Assembly (NCBI GenBank): GCA_963703685.1
Contig: CAVPFI010000007.1
Span: forward strand, 3,662-67,661
Length of the DNA stretch: 64,000 bases
From: an uncultured Acidobacteriaceae bacterium
GTDB taxonomy: Bacteria > Acidobacteriota > Terriglobia > Terriglobales > Acidobacteriaceae
Reading direction: 5' to 3'
Below are positions 819-63,468 of the stretch, piece by piece (the stretch's first letter is position 1; each line of letters opens with the position of its first letter). The notes beneath the pieces are model-generated. The model searched no databases. It was not told the DNA's origin and was given only the letters and a program-made list of their open reading frames with translations. The position numbers and the translations under genes are program-made.

Positions 819-2702
819 TTGTTCGACGAGACCACCGCCCACAACTCCGAATCCAATTCCTCTGTCGCAACCGAAGCCGAACCGACGACAGAACAGCAGC
901 ACCAGCCTGAACAAAATCAGGCTGCCGCCCCCACCGACGAATCCACCGAGACGCATACGGAGTCCGCCGCGGACGCCTCTTCAGATGTTACCTCGGACGT
1001 TACCTCAGACGACAAGGCGGCAGCTGGCGAGGACTTCGCCTCCGTCCTTGAGAATTTCACCACCGAAGCCGAAGAAGCGGTCAGTGAAGACCGGGTCATC
1101 AAAGGCACGGTGCTGAAGCTGACCGGGACGCACGTGGTGGTCGATGTCGGCGCCAAATCGGAAGGCATGTTGCCGCTGGCGGAAGTGCTCGATCACGAGG
1201 GCAAGCCGAAATTCAAGCCCGGCGACGAGATCGACGTAATGCGCGAGAAGGGCCCAGCCGAGGAGGGCTACATCAATCTCTCTCACCAAAAGGCGCAGCG
1301 CATCCATGCCTGGGAAGAGATCGAAAAGGCCTACAACGAAAAGAAGCCGATCAAGGCTGTGGTTGTTGACCGCATCAAGGGCGGGTTGACCGTCGACATT
1401 CTCGGGGCGCACGCGTTCCTGCCCGGCTCGCAGGTGGACCTGCGGCCGATCCGCAATCTGGATGGCATGAAGGGCCAGACGCTCGAAGTCGCCGTCATCA
1501 AACTGAACAAGAAGCGCGGCAACATCGTGGTTTCGCGCAAGGATTTGCTTGAAGGCGAGCAGAACGAAAAGCGCTCGAAGACGCTGGAGCATCTGGAAGA
1601 AGGATCGATACTTACCGGCGTAGTCAAGAATCTCACCGAGTACGGGGCATTCGTCGACTTGGGCGGGCTGGACGGTTTGCTGCACATCACCGACATGTCG
1701 TGGGGACGGTTGACTCATCCTAAAGATCTGGTCAACGTTGGCGACCAGATTCAGGTGAAGGTCCTGAAATACGACAAAGAAAAGCAGCGCGTTTCGCTGG
1801 GATTTAAGCAACTGACCCCGGATCCATGGCTGGACGCCGAGCACCGCTATCCCGAGGGCGCGCATGTCGGGGGTCGCGTGATAAGCGTTACCGACTATGG
1901 CGCGTTCGTGGAATTGGAGCAGGGCATTGAAGGACTGGTTCACGTCAGCGAAATGACGTGGTCAAAGCGCATGAAGCATCCGTCGAAGCTGGTCAACGTT
2001 GGCGACCATGTGGAATGCGTGGTTCTGAATGTGAATCCGACCGAACGGCGCATTTCCCTTGGAATGCGGCAACTGGCGGCCAATCCGTGGGATTCATTGC
2101 ACGAGAAGTTCCCGGTCGGCATGACAGTGGAAGGACGCGTGCGCAACCTGACCGACTTCGGCGCCTTCATTGAAATTGAGGACGGCATCGACGGGCTGGT
2201 ACATGTCAGCAACTTGAGTTGGACCAAGCGGGTGAAGCACCCTTCGGAAGTGTTGAAAAAAGGTGACCGCGTGAAGGCGGTTGTGCTGGCGATCGAACCC
2301 GACAAGCGGCGCTTGTCGCTAGGAGTCAAGCAGCTTCAACCGGATGTTTGGGAGTCCTTCTTTCAGGCGCATCACGTCGGCGATGTGGTTCACGGCAAAG
2401 TGCTGCGGGTAGCCGCATTCGGCGCATTCGTCGAAATCGCAGAGGGCGTGGAAGGCTTGTGCCACAAATCGGAGGCGGTCGACGAAAACGGCCAACCGCT
2501 CCACCTTGAGCCGGGATTCGAGCACGACTTCAAGATCATCAAGATGAATCCGGAAGAAAAGAAAGTCGGACTCAGCATCCGCGCTGTCGGTGAAGAAGCG
2601 TCACGCTCGGAAGTGGAAGCCTATAAGCAGCCCGTTTCCAGCACCAGTTCGACCATCGGCGAGTTGATTTCCTGGAAGCGCGCGAGCAACGAAAATAACT
2701 AA
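819..2702 (+). CDS. rpsA: 30S ribosomal protein S1
   Basis: 627-aa ORF with six tandem S1/OB repeats. Recurring motifs G.V..(L/I)..(Y/F)GAFV(D/E)(L/I)..G..GL(L/V)H(I/V)S. Low-complexity acidic N-terminal extension; TTG start in the track. Confidence 0.95.
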   Translation: MFDETTAHNSESNSSVATEAEPTTEQQHQPEQNQAAAPTDESTETHTESAADASSDVTSDVTSDDKAAAGEDFASVLENFTTEAEEAVSEDRVIKGTVLKLTGTHVVVDVGAKSEGMLPLAEVLDHEGKPKFKPGDEIDVMREKGPAEEGYINLSHQKAQRIHAWEEIEKAYNEKKPIKAVVVDRIKGGLTVDILGAHAFLPGSQVDLRPIRNLDGMKGQTLEVAVIKLNKKRGNIVVSRKDLLEGEQNEKRSKTLEHLEEGSILTGVVKNLTEYGAFVDLGGLDGLLHITDMSWGRLTHPKDLVNVGDQIQVKVLKYDKEKQRVSLGFKQLTPDPWLDAEHRYPEGAHVGGRVISVTDYGAFVELEQGIEGLVHVSEMTWSKRMKHPSKLVNVGDHVECVVLNVNPTERRISLGMRQLAANPWDSLHEKFPVGMTVEGRVRNLTDFGAFIEIEDGIDGLVHVSNLSWTKRVKHPSEVLKKGDRVKAVVLAIEPDKRRLSLGVKQLQPDVWESFFQAHHVGDVVHGKVLRVAAFGAFVEIAEGVEGLCHKSEAVDENGQPLHLEPGFEHDFKIIKMNPEEKKVGLSIRAVGEEASRSEVEAYKQPVSSTSSTIGELISWKRASNENN

Positions 2703-2708
2703 CCCGCA

Positions 2709-2772
2709 TTGTTATCTTGAGCGAAGTAGCAGCTTCGCGAACGCGAAGCTGCTACGCAGTCGAAGGATCCCT
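2709..2772. repeat. Family-B palindromic repeat (TGTTATCTTGAGCG / 14-bp perfect hairpin / GCAGTCGAAGGATCCCT) just after the rpsA stop; possible terminator
   Basis: Stem GTAGCAGCTTCGCG (2726-2739), loop AA, stem CGCGAAGCTGCTAC (2742-2755). Arms match copies at 4899, 19409, 21041, 35212 and 58656. Confidence 0.75.
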
Positions 2773-2836
2773 ACTCTACGTCATACTCGGTCGCCTGAAG
2801 GAATTTCCATCCATTCTACAACGCAAGGCGTCCCTC

Positions 2837-2866
2837 TTGGTCTCTTCCATCGTCCTGTTCTAGAAT
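2837..2866 (+). promoter_or_regulatory. possible promoter for lpdA
   Basis: TTGGTC (2837-2842), 18-nt spacer, TAGAAT (2861-2866). Weak -35 element. Confidence 0.3.
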
Positions 2867-2895
2867 CATTCGTTTGCCTTTCATCATCTCTTCTA

Positions 2896-4326
2896 TTGAG
2901 GATTACTCCATTGCCCGAAACTTTATACGACGTAGCCATCATCGGCAGCGGACCCGCGGGATACACAGCCGCGATTCGCGCCGGCCAATATGGCCTGAAG
3001 ACAGCCCTCATCGAGAAAGATGGATTCCTGGGCGGCACCTGCCTGCATGTCGGCTGCATCCCAACTAAGGCACTGCTGTTTAACGCGGAACTTTGGGATC
3101 ACCTGAAAGAGGCCAAGGAATTCGGAATCGAGGGCGTAGATTCGCGCAAACTCAACTGGGCCGCGATTCAGGAGCGCAAAGGAAAAATCGTTGCGAAGCA
3201 CACTAAGGGCCTCGAATTCCTGATGAAGAAGAATAAAGTGCAGACGGTGAAGGGCTACGGCAAACTCACGGGCCCGGCGCAGAATGGCGTGCATTCGATC
3301 GAAGTCACGAACGAAGGCAAGGCAACTCAGCTCAAAGCGAAAAATGTGATTCTCGCGACCGGGTCCGAAGCCCGCATGCTGCCTGGCCTTGAAGCCAGCG
3401 ATCGCATTCTTACTAACATTGAAATTCTCAGTCTGAAAGAGCTACCGAAGTCAATTGTGATTGTCGGCGCAGGAGCCGTGGGCGTAGAGTTCGCGTCCAT
3501 CTATCGCTCGTTCGATTGCGAAGTGACGATCATCGAAATGTTGCCGCGGCTCGTGCCGGTGGAAGACGAAGAAGTGTCGAAGGAGCTTGCCCGCGTCTTC
3601 CACAAGCGCGGCATTAACTTTCACACCGGCGCGAAGGTCGATAAGGTTGAGAAAACCAAAACTGGTATCACAGTGACGATCACGGCGGAAGGCAAACAGC
3701 AGAAGATCGAAGCGGAGAAAATTTTGATTGCAGTCGGCCGCAAGCCGCGCACACAGAACATCGGGCTGGAGCGTACGAAGATTAAGCCTGACCGCGAATT
3801 CATCAAAACCGATTCCTGGATGCAGACCGCCGAACCGGGAGTCTACGCCGTGGGCGACATCGTGCTGGGCACGCCGCAATTGGCCCACGTTGGAGCCATG
3901 GAAGCACTGGTGGCCGTCGCAAAAATCGCCGGCAAGCCGGGCAAGCCGATCAATCCTGAACACATTCCCGGCGCAACCTATTGCCATCCCGAAATCGGCA
4001 GTGTCGGTCTTACCGAAACCAGGGCTCGGGAAGCTGGATACAACGTGAAGATTGGCAAGTTCCCCTTTACGGCGAATTCGCGCGCTTCGATCGTCGGCCA
4101 GCACGAAGGTTTCATCAAAATCGTTTCTGACGCCGACTACGGCGAAATTCTCGGCGTGCACATCATCGGTCCGCAAGCGACAGAACTAATCGCCGAAGCC
4201 GTGGCCGCCATGGAACTCGAAGCCACGGTCGAAGATTTGATGTGGACCATCCATGCGCATCCAACCCTGGCCGAGGCCATGCTGGATGCGTCGAACAGCG
4301 TATATGGAATTGCGATTAATGCCTAA
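2896..4326 (+). CDS. lpdA: dihydrolipoyl dehydrogenase (E3)
   Basis: YDVAIIGSGPAGY FAD-binding fold and redox-active disulfide motif GGTCLHVGCIPTKALL, with a C-terminal dimerisation region HAHPTLAE. The true start may be the TTG at 2911, preceded by GAGGA. Confidence 0.93.
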   Translation: MRITPLPETLYDVAIIGSGPAGYTAAIRAGQYGLKTALIEKDGFLGGTCLHVGCIPTKALLFNAELWDHLKEAKEFGIEGVDSRKLNWAAIQERKGKIVAKHTKGLEFLMKKNKVQTVKGYGKLTGPAQNGVHSIEVTNEGKATQLKAKNVILATGSEARMLPGLEASDRILTNIEILSLKELPKSIVIVGAGAVGVEFASIYRSFDCEVTIIEMLPRLVPVEDEEVSKELARVFHKRGINFHTGAKVDKVEKTKTGITVTITAEGKQQKIEAEKILIAVGRKPRTQNIGLERTKIKPDREFIKTDSWMQTAEPGVYAVGDIVLGTPQLAHVGAMEALVAVAKIAGKPGKPINPEHIPGATYCHPEIGSVGLTETRAREAGYNVKIGKFPFTANSRASIVGQHEGFIKIVSDADYGEILGVHIIGPQATELIAEAVAAMELEATVEDLMWTIHAHPTLAEAMLDASNSVYGIAINA

Positions 4327-4334
4327 CTCACCAA

Positions 4335-4415
4335 AACCTCACCACGAGAGTCACAGAGGCATGAGAAAGACCAACAAAGAGGTCTCTCTGTGACTCTGTG
4401 TCTCTGTGGTGAAAA
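4335..4415. repeat. Family-C repeat pair (CACCACGAGAGTCACAGAGG ... TCTGTGACTCTGTGTCTCTGTGGTGAA) forming a long hairpin after lpdA
   Basis: Inverted copies of the CCTCTGTG(N)CCTCTGTGGT motif, which recurs at 11708, 20095, 23666 and 35411. Confidence 0.7.
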
Positions 4416-4460
4416 GGTTTTGATCCGTGTTAATCCGCGCGAATCCGTGGCAACAAGAAT

Positions 4461-5327
4461 TTGATCTCTATCGTCCAACTCGGCACCGTCGACTACGCCA
4501 GAGGCCTCCGCCTGCAGCAGAACCTAGTCGCGCTTCGCAAAGAAGAAAAGATCGGCGATGTCCTGCTCCTGCTCGAACACTCCCCCGTCATCACTCTGGG
4601 TCGTAATGCAAAAGCAGTGAATGTAATCGCGACCCCGGAAATCCTTGCCCGGCGTGGTGTTGAGCTCTTCGAATGTGACCGCGGCGGCGACGTAACCTTC
4701 CACGGCCCCGGCCAGATCGTCGGCTATCCCATCTTCGACCTGCGCGGATTCGCCGACCCCGACGGCAAACGCAAGACCTTAGGCGTCGTGGAATTCGTTC
4801 GCCGCCTGGAAGAAATCCTGATCCGCACCTGCGCCGACTTCGCAATCGATGCGAAGCGGGTTCCGGGTCTAACCGGCGTTTGGACGAATCCCAATTCCTT
4901 GTCATCCCGAGCGGAAGAGAACGATTCGCAGAATCGTTCTCTGCAGTCGAGGGACCTCGGGTTTCCGGCCCGTACCACGAACGCCGCGGAAGCCAAGATT
5001 GCCGCCATCGGCATCCACATCTCCCGCTTCGTCACCTCCCACGGCTTCGCTCTCAACGTAAATACGGATCTTAACTTTTTCGACCTGATCGTTCCCTGCG
5101 GCATTACCGCAAAGCCCGTCACGTCCATGCAGCAGGAACTCGGCAGAGAACTCGACCTAAACGCAGTTGCCGAATCCATCTCCCGCAACTTCGGCACAGT
5201 ATTTTCGAGCCAAATGCTTTGGGTCGATACTCTCGACGCGCTGCTCGGCCGTACAGTCGGCGTCCCGATGAAGCTGCCTAGCGAGCTCCGGCAGATTTCC
5301 AACGAAGATGATCTAAATTGGGCCTGA
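4461..5327 (+). CDS. lipB: lipoyl(octanoyl) transferase, carrying an in-frame repeat insertion
   Basis: HSPVITLGRNA, RGGDVTFHGPGQIVGYPI, KIAAIGIHISRFVTSHGFALNV and IVPCGI motifs. The segment NSLSSRAEENDSQNRSLQSRDLG between GVWTNPN and KIAAIG is encoded by a Family-B repeat. Confidence 0.9.
   Translation: MISIVQLGTVDYARGLRLQQNLVALRKEEKIGDVLLLLEHSPVITLGRNAKAVNVIATPEILARRGVELFECDRGGDVTFHGPGQIVGYPIFDLRGFADPDGKRKTLGVVEFVRRLEEILIRTCADFAIDAKRVPGLTGVWTNPNSLSSRAEENDSQNRSLQSRDLGFPARTTNAAEAKIAAIGIHISRFVTSHGFALNVNTDLNFFDLIVPCGITAKPVTSMQQELGRELDLNAVAESISRNFGTVFSSQMLWVDTLDALLGRTVGVPMKLPSELRQISNEDDLNWA
4899..4957. repeat. Family-B palindromic repeat inserted in frame inside lipB
   Basis: TTGTCATCCCGAGCG, then a 12-bp perfect hairpin AGAGAACGATTC gca GAATCGTTCTCT, then GCAGTCGAGGGACCT. 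Confidence 0.8.
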
Positions 5328-5431
5328 GCGGCGTCACCAGCAGTGGGACTTGACGGCGTTCCTTAGGACGAAACAAACTAACACGTGTGTTTCGCGGTAG
5401 CCCGTGTTTCGGATCCACCCGAATCAACATC

Positions 5432-5782
5432 ATGAAGCTAAACGGATGGAAAAGAATAGGGATCATCGCTTCTGCCGTCTGGATCCTCGGAGTGGGGATA
5501 TACACCTACGATTCAGAAGCTGAAAGGGCCTCACGGGCCATAGCTGCCGAACACGTCGCATGCGACAGCCACCTTCCTGAGTGGAGAAACGACGAGAAGG
5601 CTTACGAGGCCGCATTTCGTGCATGCGACAAACATGCTGAGGATTCTCTCTCATTGGCGATTAGCAATGCTCGATTCAGCGCTGCATTGTTTGCGTTTGT
5701 CCCCGTCCCTTTGGGCTGGGGCGTTACCTACCTAATCTTCTTTCTCGTGCGCTGGGTCAAGCGTGGATTTGTGACGCCCTAG
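5432..5782 (+). CDS. hypothetical small membrane protein (two predicted TM segments)
   Basis: MKLNGWKRIGIIASAVWILGVGIY... and a C-terminal hydrophobic stretch FAFVPVPLGWGVTYLIFFLV. Looks lower in GC than its neighbours by eye. No family recognised. Confidence 0.5.
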   Translation: MKLNGWKRIGIIASAVWILGVGIYTYDSEAERASRAIAAEHVACDSHLPEWRNDEKAYEAAFRACDKHAEDSLSLAISNARFSAALFAFVPVPLGWGVTYLIFFLVRWVKRGFVTP

Positions 5783-5838
5783 CCCTTCCTACCTCGCTCG
5801 CGATACCATCACTACATCGCGCCTGCCGCGCCGCAACC

Positions 5839-7182
5839 ATGCCCAACAAGAAAACGAAGTCCAAAACAAGCTCCAACGGCAACCGTCCGCGCAACGGGAC
5901 GTCCCGGTCAAAATCTCCACTTCTCGCAAAGAACGCGAGAAATGGGGCACCCGCGTCTGTTTCTGATGTCCGCACCTACACCATCCCCGATCTCCGCCTC
6001 GAGCAGCCCAACCTCTCCGTCCGCCAAACAATAGAAAAAGACAAAGACGGCGCCGAGCACGTCCGCTACGAAGTCACCGGCAATCTCGACGCGCCAGTCC
6101 CACCGATTCGCGACTCCAAATATCTGAGCAAAGAGCAGGCCATCGAGATCTACCGCTACATGCTGCTCAACCGCAAGATGGAAGTCGCGCTCGAAAATCT
6201 CTACAAGCAGGGCAAAGTCGTCGGCGGAGTTTATTTCGGACTCGGCCAGGAAGCCTGCTCCTGCGCCTCCGCTTACGCGCTCGATAAAGACGACTGGTTT
6301 GCGCCCATGATCCGCAATCAGGGATCGCTGCTGGTCCGCGGCTTCCGCGCCTCGGACACCATGATGCAGTACATGGCCAAGGCCGATTCGCCCACACGCG
6401 GCCGCGACGGCACCTCGCACTTCGGCGACATCGAAAAGCGCAATATGGTCTCGCCCATTTCGATGCTTGGCGATCTCATCCCTGTGCTCTCGGGGGTAGC
6501 TCTCGGCGCGCGTCTCCAGGGACGCAACGTCGCCGTCATGACCTACATCGGCGACGGAGGCCAATCCACCGGCGTCACCTACGAAGGCATCAACTTCGCT
6601 GCCGTGCAGAATCTCGGCCTCGTGCTCTTCGTCGAATCGAATCTCTGGGCTTACTCCACGCCGTCAGAACTGCAGTACCGCTGCAAAGACCTGGCCGAGC
6701 GCGCCATCGGATACGGCATCCCCGGCGTGATCGTCGACGGCACCGATGCCTGCCAGGTCTACGACGCCGCCCGCGCCGCCGTCGAACGCGCCCACCGCGG
6801 CGAAGGTCCCACACTCATCGAAGCAAAAATGATGCGCATGAAAGGCCATGCCATCCACGACGCCGCGGCGTACGTTCCCAAGCCGATGTTCGAATTCTGG
6901 AAGAAGCGCGACCCTATCGCGCGCTTTGAGAATTATCTGGTAAAAGAAAAGAAGTGGCTCACAGCGAAAGAGAATGCGGAATTAATTTCAGAAGTCGAGC
7001 GGGTGATCGAAGCTGAGCGCGAGATCGCGGTGAACTCGCCGATGCCGACGCCGGAATCCGCTGAGGGCGGGGTGTTCTGCGAAGACGGCTGCCATGAGAT
7101 TAAACCGAAGTATGGGATGCCGAAAGTGAAGAAGGGAACGGCTGGGTACAAAGAGACCGAAGCGGCGGTGCATCTGAGATAA
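5839..7182 (+). CDS. 2-oxoacid dehydrogenase E1 component, alpha subunit (TPP-dependent)
   Basis: 447-aa ORF with the TPP-binding region YIGDGGQSTGVTYEGINFAAV...ESN. The N-terminal extension contains the repeat-encoded peptide SKSPLLAKNARNGAP. Substrate (pyruvate, branched-chain or acetoin) is not resolvable by eye. Confidence 0.9.
   Translation: MPNKKTKSKTSSNGNRPRNGTSRSKSPLLAKNARNGAPASVSDVRTYTIPDLRLEQPNLSVRQTIEKDKDGAEHVRYEVTGNLDAPVPPIRDSKYLSKEQAIEIYRYMLLNRKMEVALENLYKQGKVVGGVYFGLGQEACSCASAYALDKDDWFAPMIRNQGSLLVRGFRASDTMMQYMAKADSPTRGRDGTSHFGDIEKRNMVSPISMLGDLIPVLSGVALGARLQGRNVAVMTYIGDGGQSTGVTYEGINFAAVQNLGLVLFVESNLWAYSTPSELQYRCKDLAERAIGYGIPGVIVDGTDACQVYDAARAAVERAHRGEGPTLIEAKMMRMKGHAIHDAAAYVPKPMFEFWKKRDPIARFENYLVKEKKWLTAKENAELISEVERVIEAEREIAVNSPMPTPESAEGGVFCEDGCHEIKPKYGMPKVKKGTAGYKETEAAVHLR
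5907..5952. repeat. Family-A repeat (reverse orientation) inside the E1-alpha N-terminal extension
   Basis: GTCAAAATCTCCACTTCTCGCAAAGAACGCGAGAAATGGGGCACCC is the reverse complement of the GGGTGCCCCA..TCGCG..GCGA..GGGGATTTTGAC type. Confidence 0.7.
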
Positions 7183-16849: not shown

Positions 16850-17075
16850 CAGTTGTCAGCCATCAGCCTTCAGCTCGACCAAGTCGAATGTTGACTATCA
16901 CGCCCCGCTACAGACTTCTAGCCCACGGCATCACGAAAAAGTAACGCCGTGAGAAATTCCAGCCGCGAAGCGGCGATAGATTACAGCCCACGGCGCAAGC
17001 CGTGGGTGGAGGCAAAGAAGTAACACCACAAGCCCCGGAGGGGCGCAAGAAACAACCTCAGACGCTAACTGACCA
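16850..17075. repeat. cluster of short palindromic host-type repeats inside the phage operon
   Basis: CAGCTTTCAGTTGTCAGCCATCAGCCTTCAGC, hairpin CCCACGGCGCAAGCCGTGGG and AAGCCCCGGAGGGGCGCAAG motifs. Confidence 0.6.
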
Positions 17076-19408: not shown

Positions 19409-19470
19409 TGTCATCCTGAGCGTAGGAGTTGCTTCACAAAGTGAAGCAACGCCGCAGTCGAAGGATCCCT
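19409..19470. repeat. Family-B palindromic repeat
   Basis: TGTCATCCTGAGCG, hairpin GTTGCTTCAC aaa GTGAAGCAAC, then GCAGTCGAAGGATCCCT. Confidence 0.8.
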
Positions 19471-21040: not shown

Positions 21041-21143
21041 TGTCATCCTGAGCGAAGCAGACGAGCCGAGAAGGCTCGCCTGCGCAGTCGAAGGATCCCT
21101 ATACCCTTTCATCACACGAAGCCGGGTGGGATTTTGACTTCCC
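21041..21143. repeat. Family-B repeat followed by a Family-A 3' arm
   Basis: TGTCATCCTGAGCGAAGCAGACGAGCC gaga AGGCTCGCCTGCGCAGTCGAAGGATCCCT ... GGGTGGGATTTTGACTTCCC. Confidence 0.75.
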
Positions 21144-22523: not shown

Positions 22524-22665
22524 ACGTAGCGACAGCCGCCTCGGCTGTCCAAAAAGATTGTGTGGCGCGGGCACTCCTGCCCGCGAACTCTATGCATCGA
22601 TAAGTAATGCGGGTGCCCCATCCCTTGTCGCGTCGTTTGCGACAGGGTGGGGATTTTGACTCTCC
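22524..22665. repeat. three adjacent repeats: Family E (GACAGCCGCCTCGGCTGTCC), Family F (TGTGGCGCGGGCACTCCTGCCCGCGA) and Family A
   Basis: Family E copies also at 24521, 35828 and 63407. Family F copy at 17516. Family A as listed above. Confidence 0.75.
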
Positions 22666-35211: not shown

Positions 35212-35310
35212 TGTCATCCTGAACAGCCCTGTCATTCTGAGCGGACCTGTCATCCTGAGCGGAGCGGGACGATTCGCAAAGCGAATCGCCCCGCGCCGTC
35301 GAAGGATTCC
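35212..35310. repeat. Family-B repeat with a triplicated 5' arm
   Basis: TGTCATCCTGAAC..TGTCATTCTGAGCGG..TGTCATCCTGAGCGG, then hairpin GCGGGACGATTCGC aaa GCGAATCGCCCCGC, then GTCGAAGGATTCC. Confidence 0.8.
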
Positions 35311-35676: not shown

Positions 35677-35893
35677 AACTTCCTCGCCAAAATAAACTCC
35701 AAGAAAAGTCCACAAGGGTGCCCCATTTCTCGCAGCCTCTGCGAGAAGTGGGAGTCTCCACTCTAGTGCCAATAAAAAAGCCACCAGCTCTAGCCAGTGG
35801 CCACGAATCCACCCACATCTCTTTATATGGGGACAGCCGCCCCCGGCTGTCCTTCGAGCGCAGCTCGATCTTCAGCCCGCAAGCTAAGCTCCC

Positions 35894-63391: not shown

Positions 63392-63468
63392 TAGAGATGC
63401 TCATGTGGGGACAGCCGCCCCCGGCTGTCCCAGCCGCGACGCCCTCTGTCCCGGCTGCAGTGCTTCAT

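What the first reader, a model, noticed from the sequence alone, without database searches (positions are those of the whole stretch)
4899..4957. Palindromic repeat element inserted in frame in lipB without breaking the ORF
**Seen in sequence.** A Family-B element sits inside lipB between the conserved GVWTNPN and KIAAIGIH blocks. It consists of a TTGTCATCCCGAGCG arm, a perfect 12-bp hairpin and a GCAGTCGAGGGACCT arm. It adds roughly 20-30 residues (..SLSSRAEENDSQNRSLQSRDLG..) and the frame stays open.

**Established knowledge.** In-frame insertion of palindromic elements into housekeeping proteins is known for Rickettsia palindromic elements, but is rare elsewhere.

**Inference.** A similar tolerated insertion into a surface loop of an essential lipoylation enzyme. 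The same element family also sits at gene ends, where it may act as a terminator.
Basis: partly seen in the sequence, partly recalled or inferred. Interest (0 to 1): 0.65.

Follow-up and report, generated by a model that had tools for sequence, protein, structure and literature searches.

The report
Palindromic repeat translated inside LipB
A 59-base hairpin-forming repeat sits in frame inside the lipoylation enzyme gene lipB of a soil acidobacterium, is kept in dozens of related species, and evolves as a DNA/RNA hairpin rather than as protein, in a loop that different repeat families have colonised repeatedly.

Summary
Window 4899-4957 is a 59-nt nested hairpin with two conserved arms and a perfect 12-bp inner stem. 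It lies in frame in lipB (4461-5327), just before the catalytic-lysine strand.

A covariance model built only from non-lipB copies scores it 60.9 bits (E 4.5e-15). It therefore belongs to a REP-like repeat family that also has intergenic copies in the window.

The insert is absent from distant LipBs, where the loop is usually 3 residues. It is present in 52 of 80 related species genomes and in nearly all of the 120 closest database homologues. All 80 loci keep an intact ORF.

AlphaFold2 places the insert as a low-confidence loop on an otherwise intact LipB fold (TM 0.93 to 2QHS). A soil metatranscriptome contig carries it unspliced.

The nucleotides are conserved, not the peptide:
- Third codon positions are 0.90 identical inside the element and 0.58 elsewhere in lipB.
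- 10 of 18 base pairs show compensatory changes.
- One species has a compensated frameshift inside the element.

Intergenic copies are conserved in the same way.

The loop is an insertion hotspot. At least four repeat types, and both orientations of this family, occur there in different species. A second LipB loop is also hit.

This is a new member of the known class of in-frame palindromic repeats (RPEs, intragenic REPs). The function of the hairpin is unresolved.

The parts
4461..5327 (+). lipB (octanoyltransferase), 288 aa, intact ORF that carries the insert
   Evidence: ORF list. Pfam PF21948, 1.6e-42. PDB LipB 2QHT/1W66, E about 1e-39, aligned in two blocks that skip residues 147-176. AF2 model matches 2QHS with TM 0.93.
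4899..4957 (+). 59-nt nested-hairpin repeat element (family B), in frame, codons 147-166 (LSSRAEENDSQNRSLQSRDL)
   Evidence: 60.9 bits, E 4.5e-15 against a model of non-lipB copies; fold z -2.9.
4899..4913 (+). 5' arm TTGTCATCCCGAGCG. UCCC pairs with GGGA of the 3' arm. The unpaired GAGCG is nearly invariant.
4916..4942 (+). Inner hairpin: 12-bp perfect stem AGAGAACGATTC / GAATCGTTCTCT with loop GCA
   Evidence: I2. 8 of the 11 pairs in the main inner helix show changes on both sides across species.
4943..4957 (+). 3' arm GCAGTCGAGGGACCT
4887..4988 (+). Whole lineage-specific loop expansion (residues 143-176). The element is followed by a poorly conserved tail, GFPARTTNAA.
   Evidence: Absent from T. 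thermophilus and M. tuberculosis LipB and from most representative LipBs. pLDDT below 50 for residues 147-174. The tail is variable between species.
4995..4997 (+). Codon of Lys179, the lysine of the conserved K(I/L)AAIG motif. It is the catalytic Lys by homology.
   Evidence: Invariant in alignments and aligns to the RKVAAIG / DKLCAIG motifs of the PDB LipBs. Its catalytic role is from my own knowledge of the M. tuberculosis LipB Cys/Lys dyad.
5097..5099 (+). Codon of Cys213 (PCG motif), the catalytic Cys by homology
   Evidence: Invariant.
4749..4775 (+). Second permissive LipB loop (residues 97-105, FADPDGKRK). It is empty in this window but carries repeat insertions in relatives.
   Evidence: Family-B element in frame here in L082, L092, L114, L141. 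Type-2 element here in L051 and L073.
2711..2769 (+). Intergenic family copy, 9 nt after the rpsA stop and upstream of lpdA. Different inner stem: GTAGCAGCTTCGCG.
   Evidence: 74.4 bits. Conserved as an island in 29 species.
19410..19467 (+). Family copy with its own inner stem
21042..21097 (+). Family copy with its own inner stem
35249..35308 (+). Family copy with an inner stem related to the lipB type (ACGATTCGC..GCGAATCG). It is preceded by two extra tandem copies of the 5' arm at 35213-35248.

Best explanation
**What it is (shown).** A member of a REP/MITE-like family of 59-60-nt nested hairpins. These have conserved arms and a 12-13-bp inner stem whose sequence differs between subfamilies. 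One copy lies in frame in the short beta-hairpin loop that precedes the catalytic-lysine strand of LipB.

**When it arrived (inferred).** It was inserted in an ancestor of the Candidatus Sulfotelmatobacter-like Terriglobia.

**Why it is tolerated (part shown, part inferred).** The element is stop-free in five of six frames, and this loop projects from the fold. The insertion is therefore transcribed and read through, and appears as a disordered surface excursion of about 20 residues. LipB remains a working enzyme of the lpdA-lipB-E1-E2 operon. Translation itself is inferred; there is no protein-level evidence.

**What is preserved.** The nucleic-acid hairpin is kept, not the peptide. Stems change by compensatory substitutions, unpaired arm nucleotides are almost invariant, and synonymous positions are frozen. 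Intergenic copies of the family behave the same way. The constraint is therefore a property of the repeat family, not of LipB.

**What the hairpin does (inferred, not shown).** Most likely it is a hairpin recognised as RNA or single-stranded DNA. Possibilities are an mRNA-stability or processing element, or a protein-binding site, as proposed for REPs.

**Hotspot (pattern shown, cause inferred).** Other repeat families, reverse copies of this family and arm duplications have accumulated or replaced one another in this loop in related species. Probable causes are that only this loop and one other survive selection, and that existing hairpins attract further insertions.
For: **Family membership.**
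- The model built from non-lipB copies scores the lipB copy 60.9 bits, E 4.5e-15.
- It finds 135 copies in 525 kb of relatives.
- All copies share the same length and fold.

**A true insertion.**
- PDB LipBs align in two blocks that skip residues 147-176.
- The modal loop is 3 residues in 1.8-billion-protein representatives.
- The nearest insert-free Terriglobales have GVWTNEAK or GVWTYALRNKPEAK.

**Ancient and retained.**
- It is present in nearly all of the 120 closest homologues (78-91% identity).
- It is present in 52 of 80 GTDB species loci, always four residues after GVWT in the simple cases.
- 80 of 80 loci have an intact ORF.

**A working gene.**
- Pairwise identity at codon positions 1 / 2 / 3 outside the element is 0.87 / 0.92 / 0.58.
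- The catalytic K and C are invariant.
- The gene lies in an operon with lpdA, E1 alpha, E1 beta and E2.

**A surface loop.**
- AF2 gives mean pLDDT 80.8, with residues 147-174 below 50, between strands 137-142 and 179-183.
- The model matches 2QHS with TM 0.93 and rmsd 1.8 A.

**Transcribed unspliced.** A 239-nt contig from a soil metatranscriptome is identical to window 4775-5013.

**Nucleotide-level constraint.**
- Inside the element, identity at positions 1 / 2 / 3 is 0.82 / 0.87 / 0.90, the best third-position window in the gene.
- 96.4% of cells are paired, 10 of 18 pairs have double changes, and 0 of 500 shuffles reach these values.
- Unpaired arm nucleotides are 0.98 identical, paired positions 0.88 and the apical loop 0.66.
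- L012 has a compensated frameshift.

**A family property.** The rpsA-lpdA intergenic copy is an island of 0.8-0.99 identity within unalignable flanks in 29 species.

**Hotspot.** Four insert types and a reverse copy occur in the loop. Supported sister species differ in loop content. A second loop is also used.
Against: - No protein-level evidence shows that the insert is translated.
- The RNA evidence is one assembled contig from a metatranscriptome, which could contain DNA.
- No function of the hairpin was demonstrated.
- Copies lack T tails and lie in either orientation relative to genes.
- G.U versus A.C mismatches show no strand asymmetry (17 vs 12), so an RNA-level role is not favoured over a DNA-level one.
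- Element divergence does not track gene divergence (Mantel r 0.03, p 0.39). The species tree is poorly resolved. A single ancient insertion is therefore inferred from the constant position and clade-congruent variants, not proven.
- The inner hairpin can be lost without loss of lipB (L037, L044).
- The exact lipB-type inner stem also occurs at about 14 intergenic sites and in the second LipB loop in metagenomes. Exchange between copies could therefore mimic constraint.
Confidence: 0.7

Rival explanations
1. The element is a neutral passenger. The hairpin and its sequence are kept by non-selective processes, not by function. Candidate processes are intrastrand template-switch correction of quasi-palindromes during replication, and gene conversion from other copies of the same subfamily.
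For: - The same inner stem exists at other loci and in a second LipB loop.
- L030, L034 and L076 carry in lipB the apical variant GATGAGC..GCGAATC, which is typical of the E1 alpha-E1 beta spacer copy 2 kb away.
- Element distance is uncorrelated with gene distance.
- There is no G.U / A.C strand asymmetry.
- The inner hairpin is dispensable in L037 and L044.
Against: - Template switching restores complementarity but does not explain why unpaired internal-loop nucleotides are the most conserved positions (0.98).
- It also does not explain why stem length and total length are constant across subfamilies.
- Copies at different loci of one genome keep different, locus-specific stems and arm subtypes across many species. 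One example is the TCCT..GAAGGATC arms upstream of lpdA versus the TCCC..GAGGGACC arms in lipB. This argues against pervasive homogenisation.
Confidence: 0.2
2. The lipB copies are not orthologous. The element family inserts site-specifically and repeatedly into this loop, so its low divergence reflects recent arrival in each lineage.
For: - The loop and a second loop have clearly been hit several times by several families, in both orientations.
- Well-supported sister species differ in loop content: L002/L040 at 100% and L037/L058 at 96% bootstrap.
- There is no distance correlation.
Against: - The junction is the same in nearly all carriers.
- Variants are shared within supported clades. The TTCC/GGAA arm pair is seen in L051/L073, L052/L071 and L008/L013. 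The CAGGAC/GTCCTG stem is seen in L017/L021/L031.
- Variation within the element is concentrated in the loop and in covarying pairs, not spread evenly as recency would predict.
- The flanking tail has diverged as neutral sequence would.
Confidence: 0.12
3. The inserted peptide has acquired a function in LipB, for example docking of acyl carrier protein or of lipoyl domains, and is conserved for that reason.
For: - The peptide LSSRAEENDSQNRSLESRDL is nearly constant in more than 100 homologues.
- It lies next to the catalytic-lysine strand.
Against: - Conservation is flat across codon positions and highest at third positions.
- Amino acids change in pairs dictated by base pairing (S/D to F/N, N..S to D..P).
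- L012 reads part of the element in another frame.
- Related species replace it with unrelated repeat-derived peptides or lose its middle.
- The region has pLDDT below 50.
Confidence: 0.05
4. The element is not translated. It is removed from the mRNA or bypassed by the ribosome, or this lipB is a pseudogene backed up by another lipoylation gene.
For: Hairpin-rich mobile inserts are bypassed in some systems (phage T4 gene 60, yeast mitochondrial byps; my own knowledge). A second lipB or lplA elsewhere in the genome could not be excluded from one window.
Against: - The frame and the absence of stops are preserved in 80 of 80 loci and in the 120 closest homologues, with indels in multiples of three.
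- The RNA contig retains the element.
- There is strong purifying selection on the rest of the gene.
Confidence: 0.03

Closest known systems
Rickettsia palindromic elements (RPEs) inserted in frame in housekeeping genes
   Same: Both are palindromic interspersed repeats found in intergenic DNA and in frame inside conserved enzymes. Both are compatible with fold and function. Some are retained genus-wide, such as the RPE-7-like insert in PheT of all Rickettsia (PMC1779305; PMC10969869).
   Different: RPEs are 100-150 bp, occur in obligate intracellular Alphaproteobacteria, and have unrelated sequences. This element is a 59-nt nested hairpin in free-living soil Acidobacteriota. Here the nucleotide-level covariation inside the ORF and the repeated use of one loop by several families were measured directly.
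Intragenic REPs (GTAG- and CGTC-tagged repetitive extragenic palindromes; Di Nocera et al. 2013, PMC3733652)
   Same: Both are short palindromic repeats. They lie mostly just downstream of genes, sometimes inside ORFs as singles, dimers or groups encoding 20-30 residues, and sometimes twice in one gene. A selective filter is thought to remove disruptive insertions.
   Different: The lipB copy has neither a terminal GTAG nor a CGTC tag. It is longer than the 20-40-bp range given for REPs. It has a two-tier structure, with conserved arms containing invariant unpaired bases around a variable inner stem of fixed length. No RAYT association was tested.
Bacterial MITEs (RUP, ERIC, Correia/NEMIS, Nezha)
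   Same: Both are small non-coding repeats that fold into stable hairpins, occur next to or within genes, and fall into subfamilies. The same subfamily is found at new sites in some genomes.
   Different: MITEs have 15-30-bp terminal inverted repeats, target-site duplications and a parent IS. Here the terminal complementarity is only 4-5 bp, and no duplication or parent element was identified.
Integron attC sites (architectural analogy only)
   Same: Both have conserved short sequences at the two ends, a variable central palindrome and conserved extrahelical bases. attC sites are recognised by shape rather than by sequence, and their sizes start around 57 nt.
   Different: There are no RYYYAAC / GTTRRRY core sites, no cassette arrays and no integrase in view. 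Copies are dispersed singly. This element is not a member of that class.

Membership tests
LipB octanoyltransferase | LplA/LipB catalytic domain | tested here: met
   Pfam PF21948, 146 bits (cut-off 27), residues 11-244. PDB LipBs 2QHT/1W66 at E about 1e-39.
LipB octanoyltransferase | Conserved Lys (K-I/L-A-A-I-G) and Cys (P-C-G) of the catalytic dyad | tested here: met
   K179 and C213 are invariant in alignments A2, A3 and A4. Their catalytic role is from established knowledge of M. tuberculosis LipB.
LipB octanoyltransferase | LipB fold | tested here: met
   The AF2 model (pLDDT 80.8) superposes on T. thermophilus LipB 2QHS with TM 0.93 and rmsd 1.8 A.
Family-B nested-hairpin repeat of this genome and its relatives | Match to a sequence-plus-structure model built from other copies | tested here: met
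   60.9 bits, E 4.5e-15, full model length. The lipB copy was not in the training set.
REP (repetitive extragenic palindrome, RAYT-type) | Short imperfect palindrome present in many dispersed copies | tested here: met
   5 full and about 6 partial copies in 64 kb, and 135 in 525 kb of relatives. At 59 nt, however, it exceeds the 20-40-bp range given for REPs in PMC3733652.
REP (repetitive extragenic palindrome, RAYT-type) | Conserved GTAG or CGTC tetranucleotide at one end | tested here: not met
   The arms begin (T)GTCATCC and end GGGACCT, with no terminal GTAG or CGTC. Only the inner stem of the rpsA-lpdA copy begins with GTAG.
REP (repetitive extragenic palindrome, RAYT-type) | Associated RAYT (Y1 transposase) gene flanked by the repeats | not tested
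   Only the operon around lipB was annotated. A whole-genome search was not possible.
Rickettsia palindromic elements | Membership of one of the RPE sequence families, 100-150 bp, in Rickettsiales | tested here: not met
   The length is 59 nt and the host is Acidobacteriota (record titles). No direct sequence comparison with RPE consensus sequences was run. The resemblance is in behaviour only.
MITE | Terminal inverted repeats of 15-30 bp and a target-site duplication | tested here: inconclusive
   Only 4-5 bp of terminal complementarity (UCCC/GGGA) are present. No flanking direct repeat is evident at lipB. No true empty site from a close relative was available to define a duplication.
Known structured RNA families (Rfam 15) | Covariance-model match | tested here: not met
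   No match at E up to 10 in 4800-5060. The only family reaching its gathering score in the window is Acido-Lenti-1, elsewhere.

The most novel reading that the evidence does not exclude
The 59-nt nested hairpin may be an undescribed functional nucleic-acid motif of Terriglobia, not merely selfish DNA. It has invariant unpaired arm bases, a covarying stem of fixed length and a free apical loop. It would be recognised by a conserved protein as RNA or as single-stranded DNA. Purifying selection would keep it at orthologous sites across dozens of species. The lipB copy would then be a dual-coding case, in which a structured element and an essential enzyme share the same bases. It might tune expression within the lpdA-lipB-E1-E2 operon. 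A corollary is that hairpins of resident repeats act as landing pads for further palindromic insertions. That would build protein loops from nested repeats.
Probability: 0.3. Interest if true: 0.7.

Novelty: new member of a known kind. Interest (0 to 1): 0.5.

Why it matters
This case shows that in-frame palindromic repeats in core enzymes occur outside Rickettsia and the few REP-rich proteobacteria. They are also found in abundant, uncultured soil Acidobacteriota.

The case is unusually well sampled: more than 50 species and several hundred metagenomic copies. In it, the overlap between a nucleic-acid hairpin and a reading frame can be measured. Protein loops turn out to be assembled, swapped and extended by several repeat families.

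If the hairpin is functional, it offers a tractable example of selection on structure inside a coding sequence. It would also be a candidate new regulatory or protein-binding motif.

In practice, such inserts inflate apparent protein diversity and break profile alignments into two blocks. Annotation pipelines for soil MAGs should take this into account.

Tried and rejected
- **Rfam.** Neither the gathering threshold on the whole window nor E up to 10 on 4800-5060 gave a match to the element.
- **Hammerhead-like reading.** I considered reading the arms (CUGA..GUC..GAA) as a hammerhead. I rejected it by inspection, because there is no stem I and no CUGANGA.
- **K-turn or tandem G.A reading.** This reading of the internal loop (UGA / CGA) is possible. 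The positions never vary, so it cannot be tested by covariation and is left as an idea.
- **attC.** The architecture is similar, but the core sites are absent.
- **First AlphaFold2 run.** With only close homologues the model was unusable (pLDDT 48). A second run with added insert-free Terriglobales LipBs worked.
- **Trees.** The lipB-only NJ tree and the lpdA+lipB tree leave deep nodes unresolved. Gains and losses could be counted only for a few supported sister pairs.
- **Mantel test.** Element distance against gene distance was uninformative or negative.
- **G.U versus A.C asymmetry.** This test, meant to pick the functional strand, was not significant.
- **Terminator scan.** No T-tailed hairpin was found at any family copy in 2500-5900.
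- **Literature search.** Full-text searches for the arm sequences found nothing.
- **Uniqueness of the inner stem.** The idea that the inner stem is unique to lipB was tested and rejected by the metagenome scan.
Full report
**1. What is at the coordinates**

Window 4899-4957 reads TTGTCATCCCGAGCG GA AGAGAACGATTC GCA GAATCGTTCTCT GCAGTCGAGGGACCT. The 12-bp inverted repeat is perfect. The 59-mer folds as a nested hairpin: an outer UCCC/GGGA helix, internal loops, then the inner stem. Its free energy is -24.6 kcal/mol and its z-score is -2.9.

The element starts on a codon boundary of ORF 4461..5327. This ORF is LipB: Pfam LplA-B_cat at 1.6e-42, and PDB LipBs 2QHT and 1W66 at E about 1e-39. The element encodes LSSRAEENDSQNRSLQSRDL.

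The gene lies in the order rpsA, [repeat], lpdA, [another repeat], lipB, small ORF, E1 alpha, E1 beta, E2. It is therefore the octanoyltransferase of a 2-oxoacid dehydrogenase operon.

**2. It belongs to a repeat family**

Four other full copies are in the window, at 2711, 19410, 21042 and 35249, all on the + strand. Several partial copies are also present. All share the arms GTCATCC(T/C)GAGCG and (C)GCAGTCGA(A/G)GGA(T/C)C and a total length of 59-60 nt. Their inner stems differ in sequence.

A covariance model built from 38 copies, none taken from lipB, scores the lipB copy 60.9 bits, E 4.5e-15. It finds 135 copies in 525 kb of related genomes. Rfam has no match, and full-text searches for the arm sequences found no paper.

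**3. It is an insertion, and an old one**

HMMER aligns solved LipBs in two blocks that skip residues 147-176. Thermus has GVWVGEDKLCAIG at this position. Among representatives of 1.8 billion proteins, the commonest spacing between GVW[VT] and the lysine is 3 residues. The nearest insert-free Terriglobales have GVWTNEAK or GVWTYALRNKPEAK.

In contrast, nearly all of the 120 closest database homologues carry the peptide. These are 78-91% identical, and some are named Candidatus Sulfotelmatobacter.

| Loop content in 80 species-representative genomes | Number |
|---|---|
| Long element | 52 |
| Short form without the inner hairpin | 3 |
| Other inserts only | 25 |

All 80 have an intact lipB ORF.

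**4. The enzyme is intact and the insert is a loop**

Outside the element, pairwise identity at codon positions 1, 2 and 3 is 0.87, 0.92 and 0.58. This is the signature of purifying selection on a protein. The motif lysine (K179) and the PCG cysteine (C213) are invariant.

The first AlphaFold2 run, with a shallow alignment, failed. After insert-free relatives were added, the model reached pLDDT 80.8. Residues 147-174 stayed below 50, between strands 137-142 and 179-183. The model superposes on T. thermophilus LipB with TM 0.93 and rmsd 1.8 A.

A 239-nt contig from a soil metatranscriptome is identical to window 4775-5013. It carries the element without any joint. This argues against splicing, although DNA carry-over cannot be excluded.

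**5. The hairpin is conserved, not the peptide**

- Inside the element, pairwise identity at codon positions 1, 2 and 3 is 0.82, 0.87 and 0.90. It is the most conserved third-position window of the whole gene.
- On the alignment of 51 copies, 96.4% of cells are paired and 10 of 18 pairs show changes on both sides. No shuffle out of 500 reaches either value, and slid registers fall to 19-53% paired.
- The changes alter amino acids in coordinated pairs: S..D to F..N through C-G to U-A, and N..S to D..P through A-U to G-C.
- L012 reads the first half of the element in another frame and returns to frame within it.
- Indels at the apical loop come in threes.
- Within the element, unpaired arm nucleotides are the most conserved (0.98). 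Paired positions follow (0.88), and the apical loop is least conserved (0.66).

**6. The constraint is a family property**

The copy 9 nt downstream of rpsA has its own inner stem. It is found at the same place in 29 species, as an island of 0.8-0.99 identity within flanks that do not align. The unrelated 'type 2' repeat that replaces or accompanies the element in other species is likewise a conserved island.

**7. The loop is a hotspot**

Between GVWT and EAK, related species carry one or more of the following:

- this element;
- its short form;
- a reverse-orientation copy (RSLDCESRSAFGSPLSARDDN);
- a second family (HVGTAASAVQRSEAS, DNA GGGACAGCCGCC-TCG-GCTGTCC..., also dispersed in the window);
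- a third family (GHDFSRAEKGLDKESASAAE);
- tandem duplications of the 5' arm.

Well-supported sister species differ in content: L002/L040 at 100%, L037/L058 at 96%, and L055 against L054/L046/L049 at 81%.

A scan of metagenomes for the exact inner stem gave 87 matches:

| Context | Matches |
|---|---|
| This LipB loop | 70 |
| In frame in a second LipB loop (DLRGF..KTLGVVEF) | 3 (L141 carries a decayed family-B copy in this loop that did not match the exact pattern) |
| Intergenic, including the E1 alpha-E1 beta spacer | about 14 |

The inner stem therefore marks a mobile subfamily, not a lipB-specific sequence.

**8. Mechanism**

Shown:
- a REP-like element is in frame in a permissive loop;
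- the gene remains under selection;
- the element is transcribed;
- the hairpin and specific unpaired bases are maintained.

Inferred:
- The insertion happened once, early in this clade. The junction is constant and variants are congruent with supported clades. However, deep nodes are unresolved, and element distance does not correlate with gene distance.
- The insertion survives because five of six frames are stop-free and the loop projects from the fold.
- The family is maintained because the hairpin is recognised as RNA or ssDNA.

Which molecule is recognised is open. G.U and A.C mismatches are balanced, orientation relative to genes is mixed, and there are no T tails.

The main rival is maintenance without function, through template-switch correction and conversion among copies. 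Shared subfamily stems and an apical variant in L030, L034 and L076 that matches the neighbouring spacer copy favour this rival. The invariant unpaired bases, the fixed stem length and the persistence of locus-specific stems argue against it.

**9. Comparison and verdict**

Behaviourally this is the phenomenon known from Rickettsia palindromic elements (PMC10969869; genus-wide PheT insert, PMC1779305) and from intragenic REPs in several phyla (PMC3733652). It is not a member of the RPE families. It lacks the GTAG or CGTC tag of the REP superfamilies and the long terminal repeats of MITEs.

I file it as a new member of a known kind. It is an undescribed acidobacterial repeat family showing the known in-frame behaviour. 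Its evolutionary signature is unusually clear, and the function of the hairpin remains an open question.

Noticed in passing
window 5905-5955 (E1 alpha, ORF 5839-7182, N-terminal extension): The first 60 or so residues of E1 alpha, ahead of the Pfam E1_dh domain, contain a third repeat family in frame (..SPLLAKNARNGAP..; DNA GCGAGAAATGGGGCACCC). It also occurs at 35716(-) and 40751(-). In the closest relative, L001, the same position holds the 'type 2' repeat instead (VRTAALGRSVERSST).
   Followed up: partly
window 4749-4775 (LipB residues 97-105); L082, L092, L114, L141, L051, L073: A second LipB loop (DLRGF..KTLGVVEF) is empty here. In some relatives it carries in-frame copies of the same family-B element, with the same inner stem. 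In others it carries the type-2 repeat.
   Followed up: partly
window 35213-35261: There are three tandem 18-bp copies of the 5' arm (..TGTCATCCTGAACAGCC / CTGTCATTCTGAGCGGAC / CTGTCATCCTGAGCGG..) in front of a full element. The same kind of arm duplication appears in frame in the LipB loop of L030, L034, L051, L073 and L076.
   Followed up: no
window 4347-4397 (lpdA-lipB spacer): Another palindromic repeat, AGAGTCACAGAG / CTCTGTGACTCT (12 bp perfect, 27 nt apart), is followed by CTCTGTGGTGAAAAGG. It probably belongs to a further repeat family.
   Followed up: no
window 16961-17006 (-): Rfam Acido-Lenti-1 RNA at 52.1 bits (gathering score 37). It is the only Rfam family that reaches its threshold in the window.
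   Followed up: no
window 63396-63430, 22531-22551, 35828-35868; L026, L038, L060 LipB loops: The 'type 2' repeat (GGGACAGCCGCC TCG GCTGTCC AGCGAAGCGAAGC) is dispersed in the window. In L026, L038 and L060 its apical loop holds a further 25-nt insert (..ALRQxQGRLSA..). This is nesting of one palindromic element inside another.
   Followed up: partly
L012 3442-3499: There is a compensated frameshift inside the lipB element. The peptide reads SLVIPSGADDSQRIVLPESRDL, while the DNA remains a recognisable hairpin copy (53.4 bits).
   Followed up: yes
L037, L044 (lipB); L017 5823-5848, L044 5806-5831 (E1 alpha-E1 beta spacer): These are short forms, with the arms joined by 2 nt. They sit at sites where other species have the full element, so the inner palindrome is precisely absent. 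This is read as deletion.
   Followed up: partly
window 5387-5782: A 131-aa ORF with no Pfam match lies between lipB and E1 alpha. In L001 the two genes are only about 120 nt apart, so this segment differs between close relatives.
   Followed up: no
window 8001-40000: GC skew is strongly negative (-0.16 to -0.24) across the block in which most long ORFs are on the minus strand. All five full-length family-B copies in the window are on the plus strand, whatever the gene orientation.
   Followed up: no
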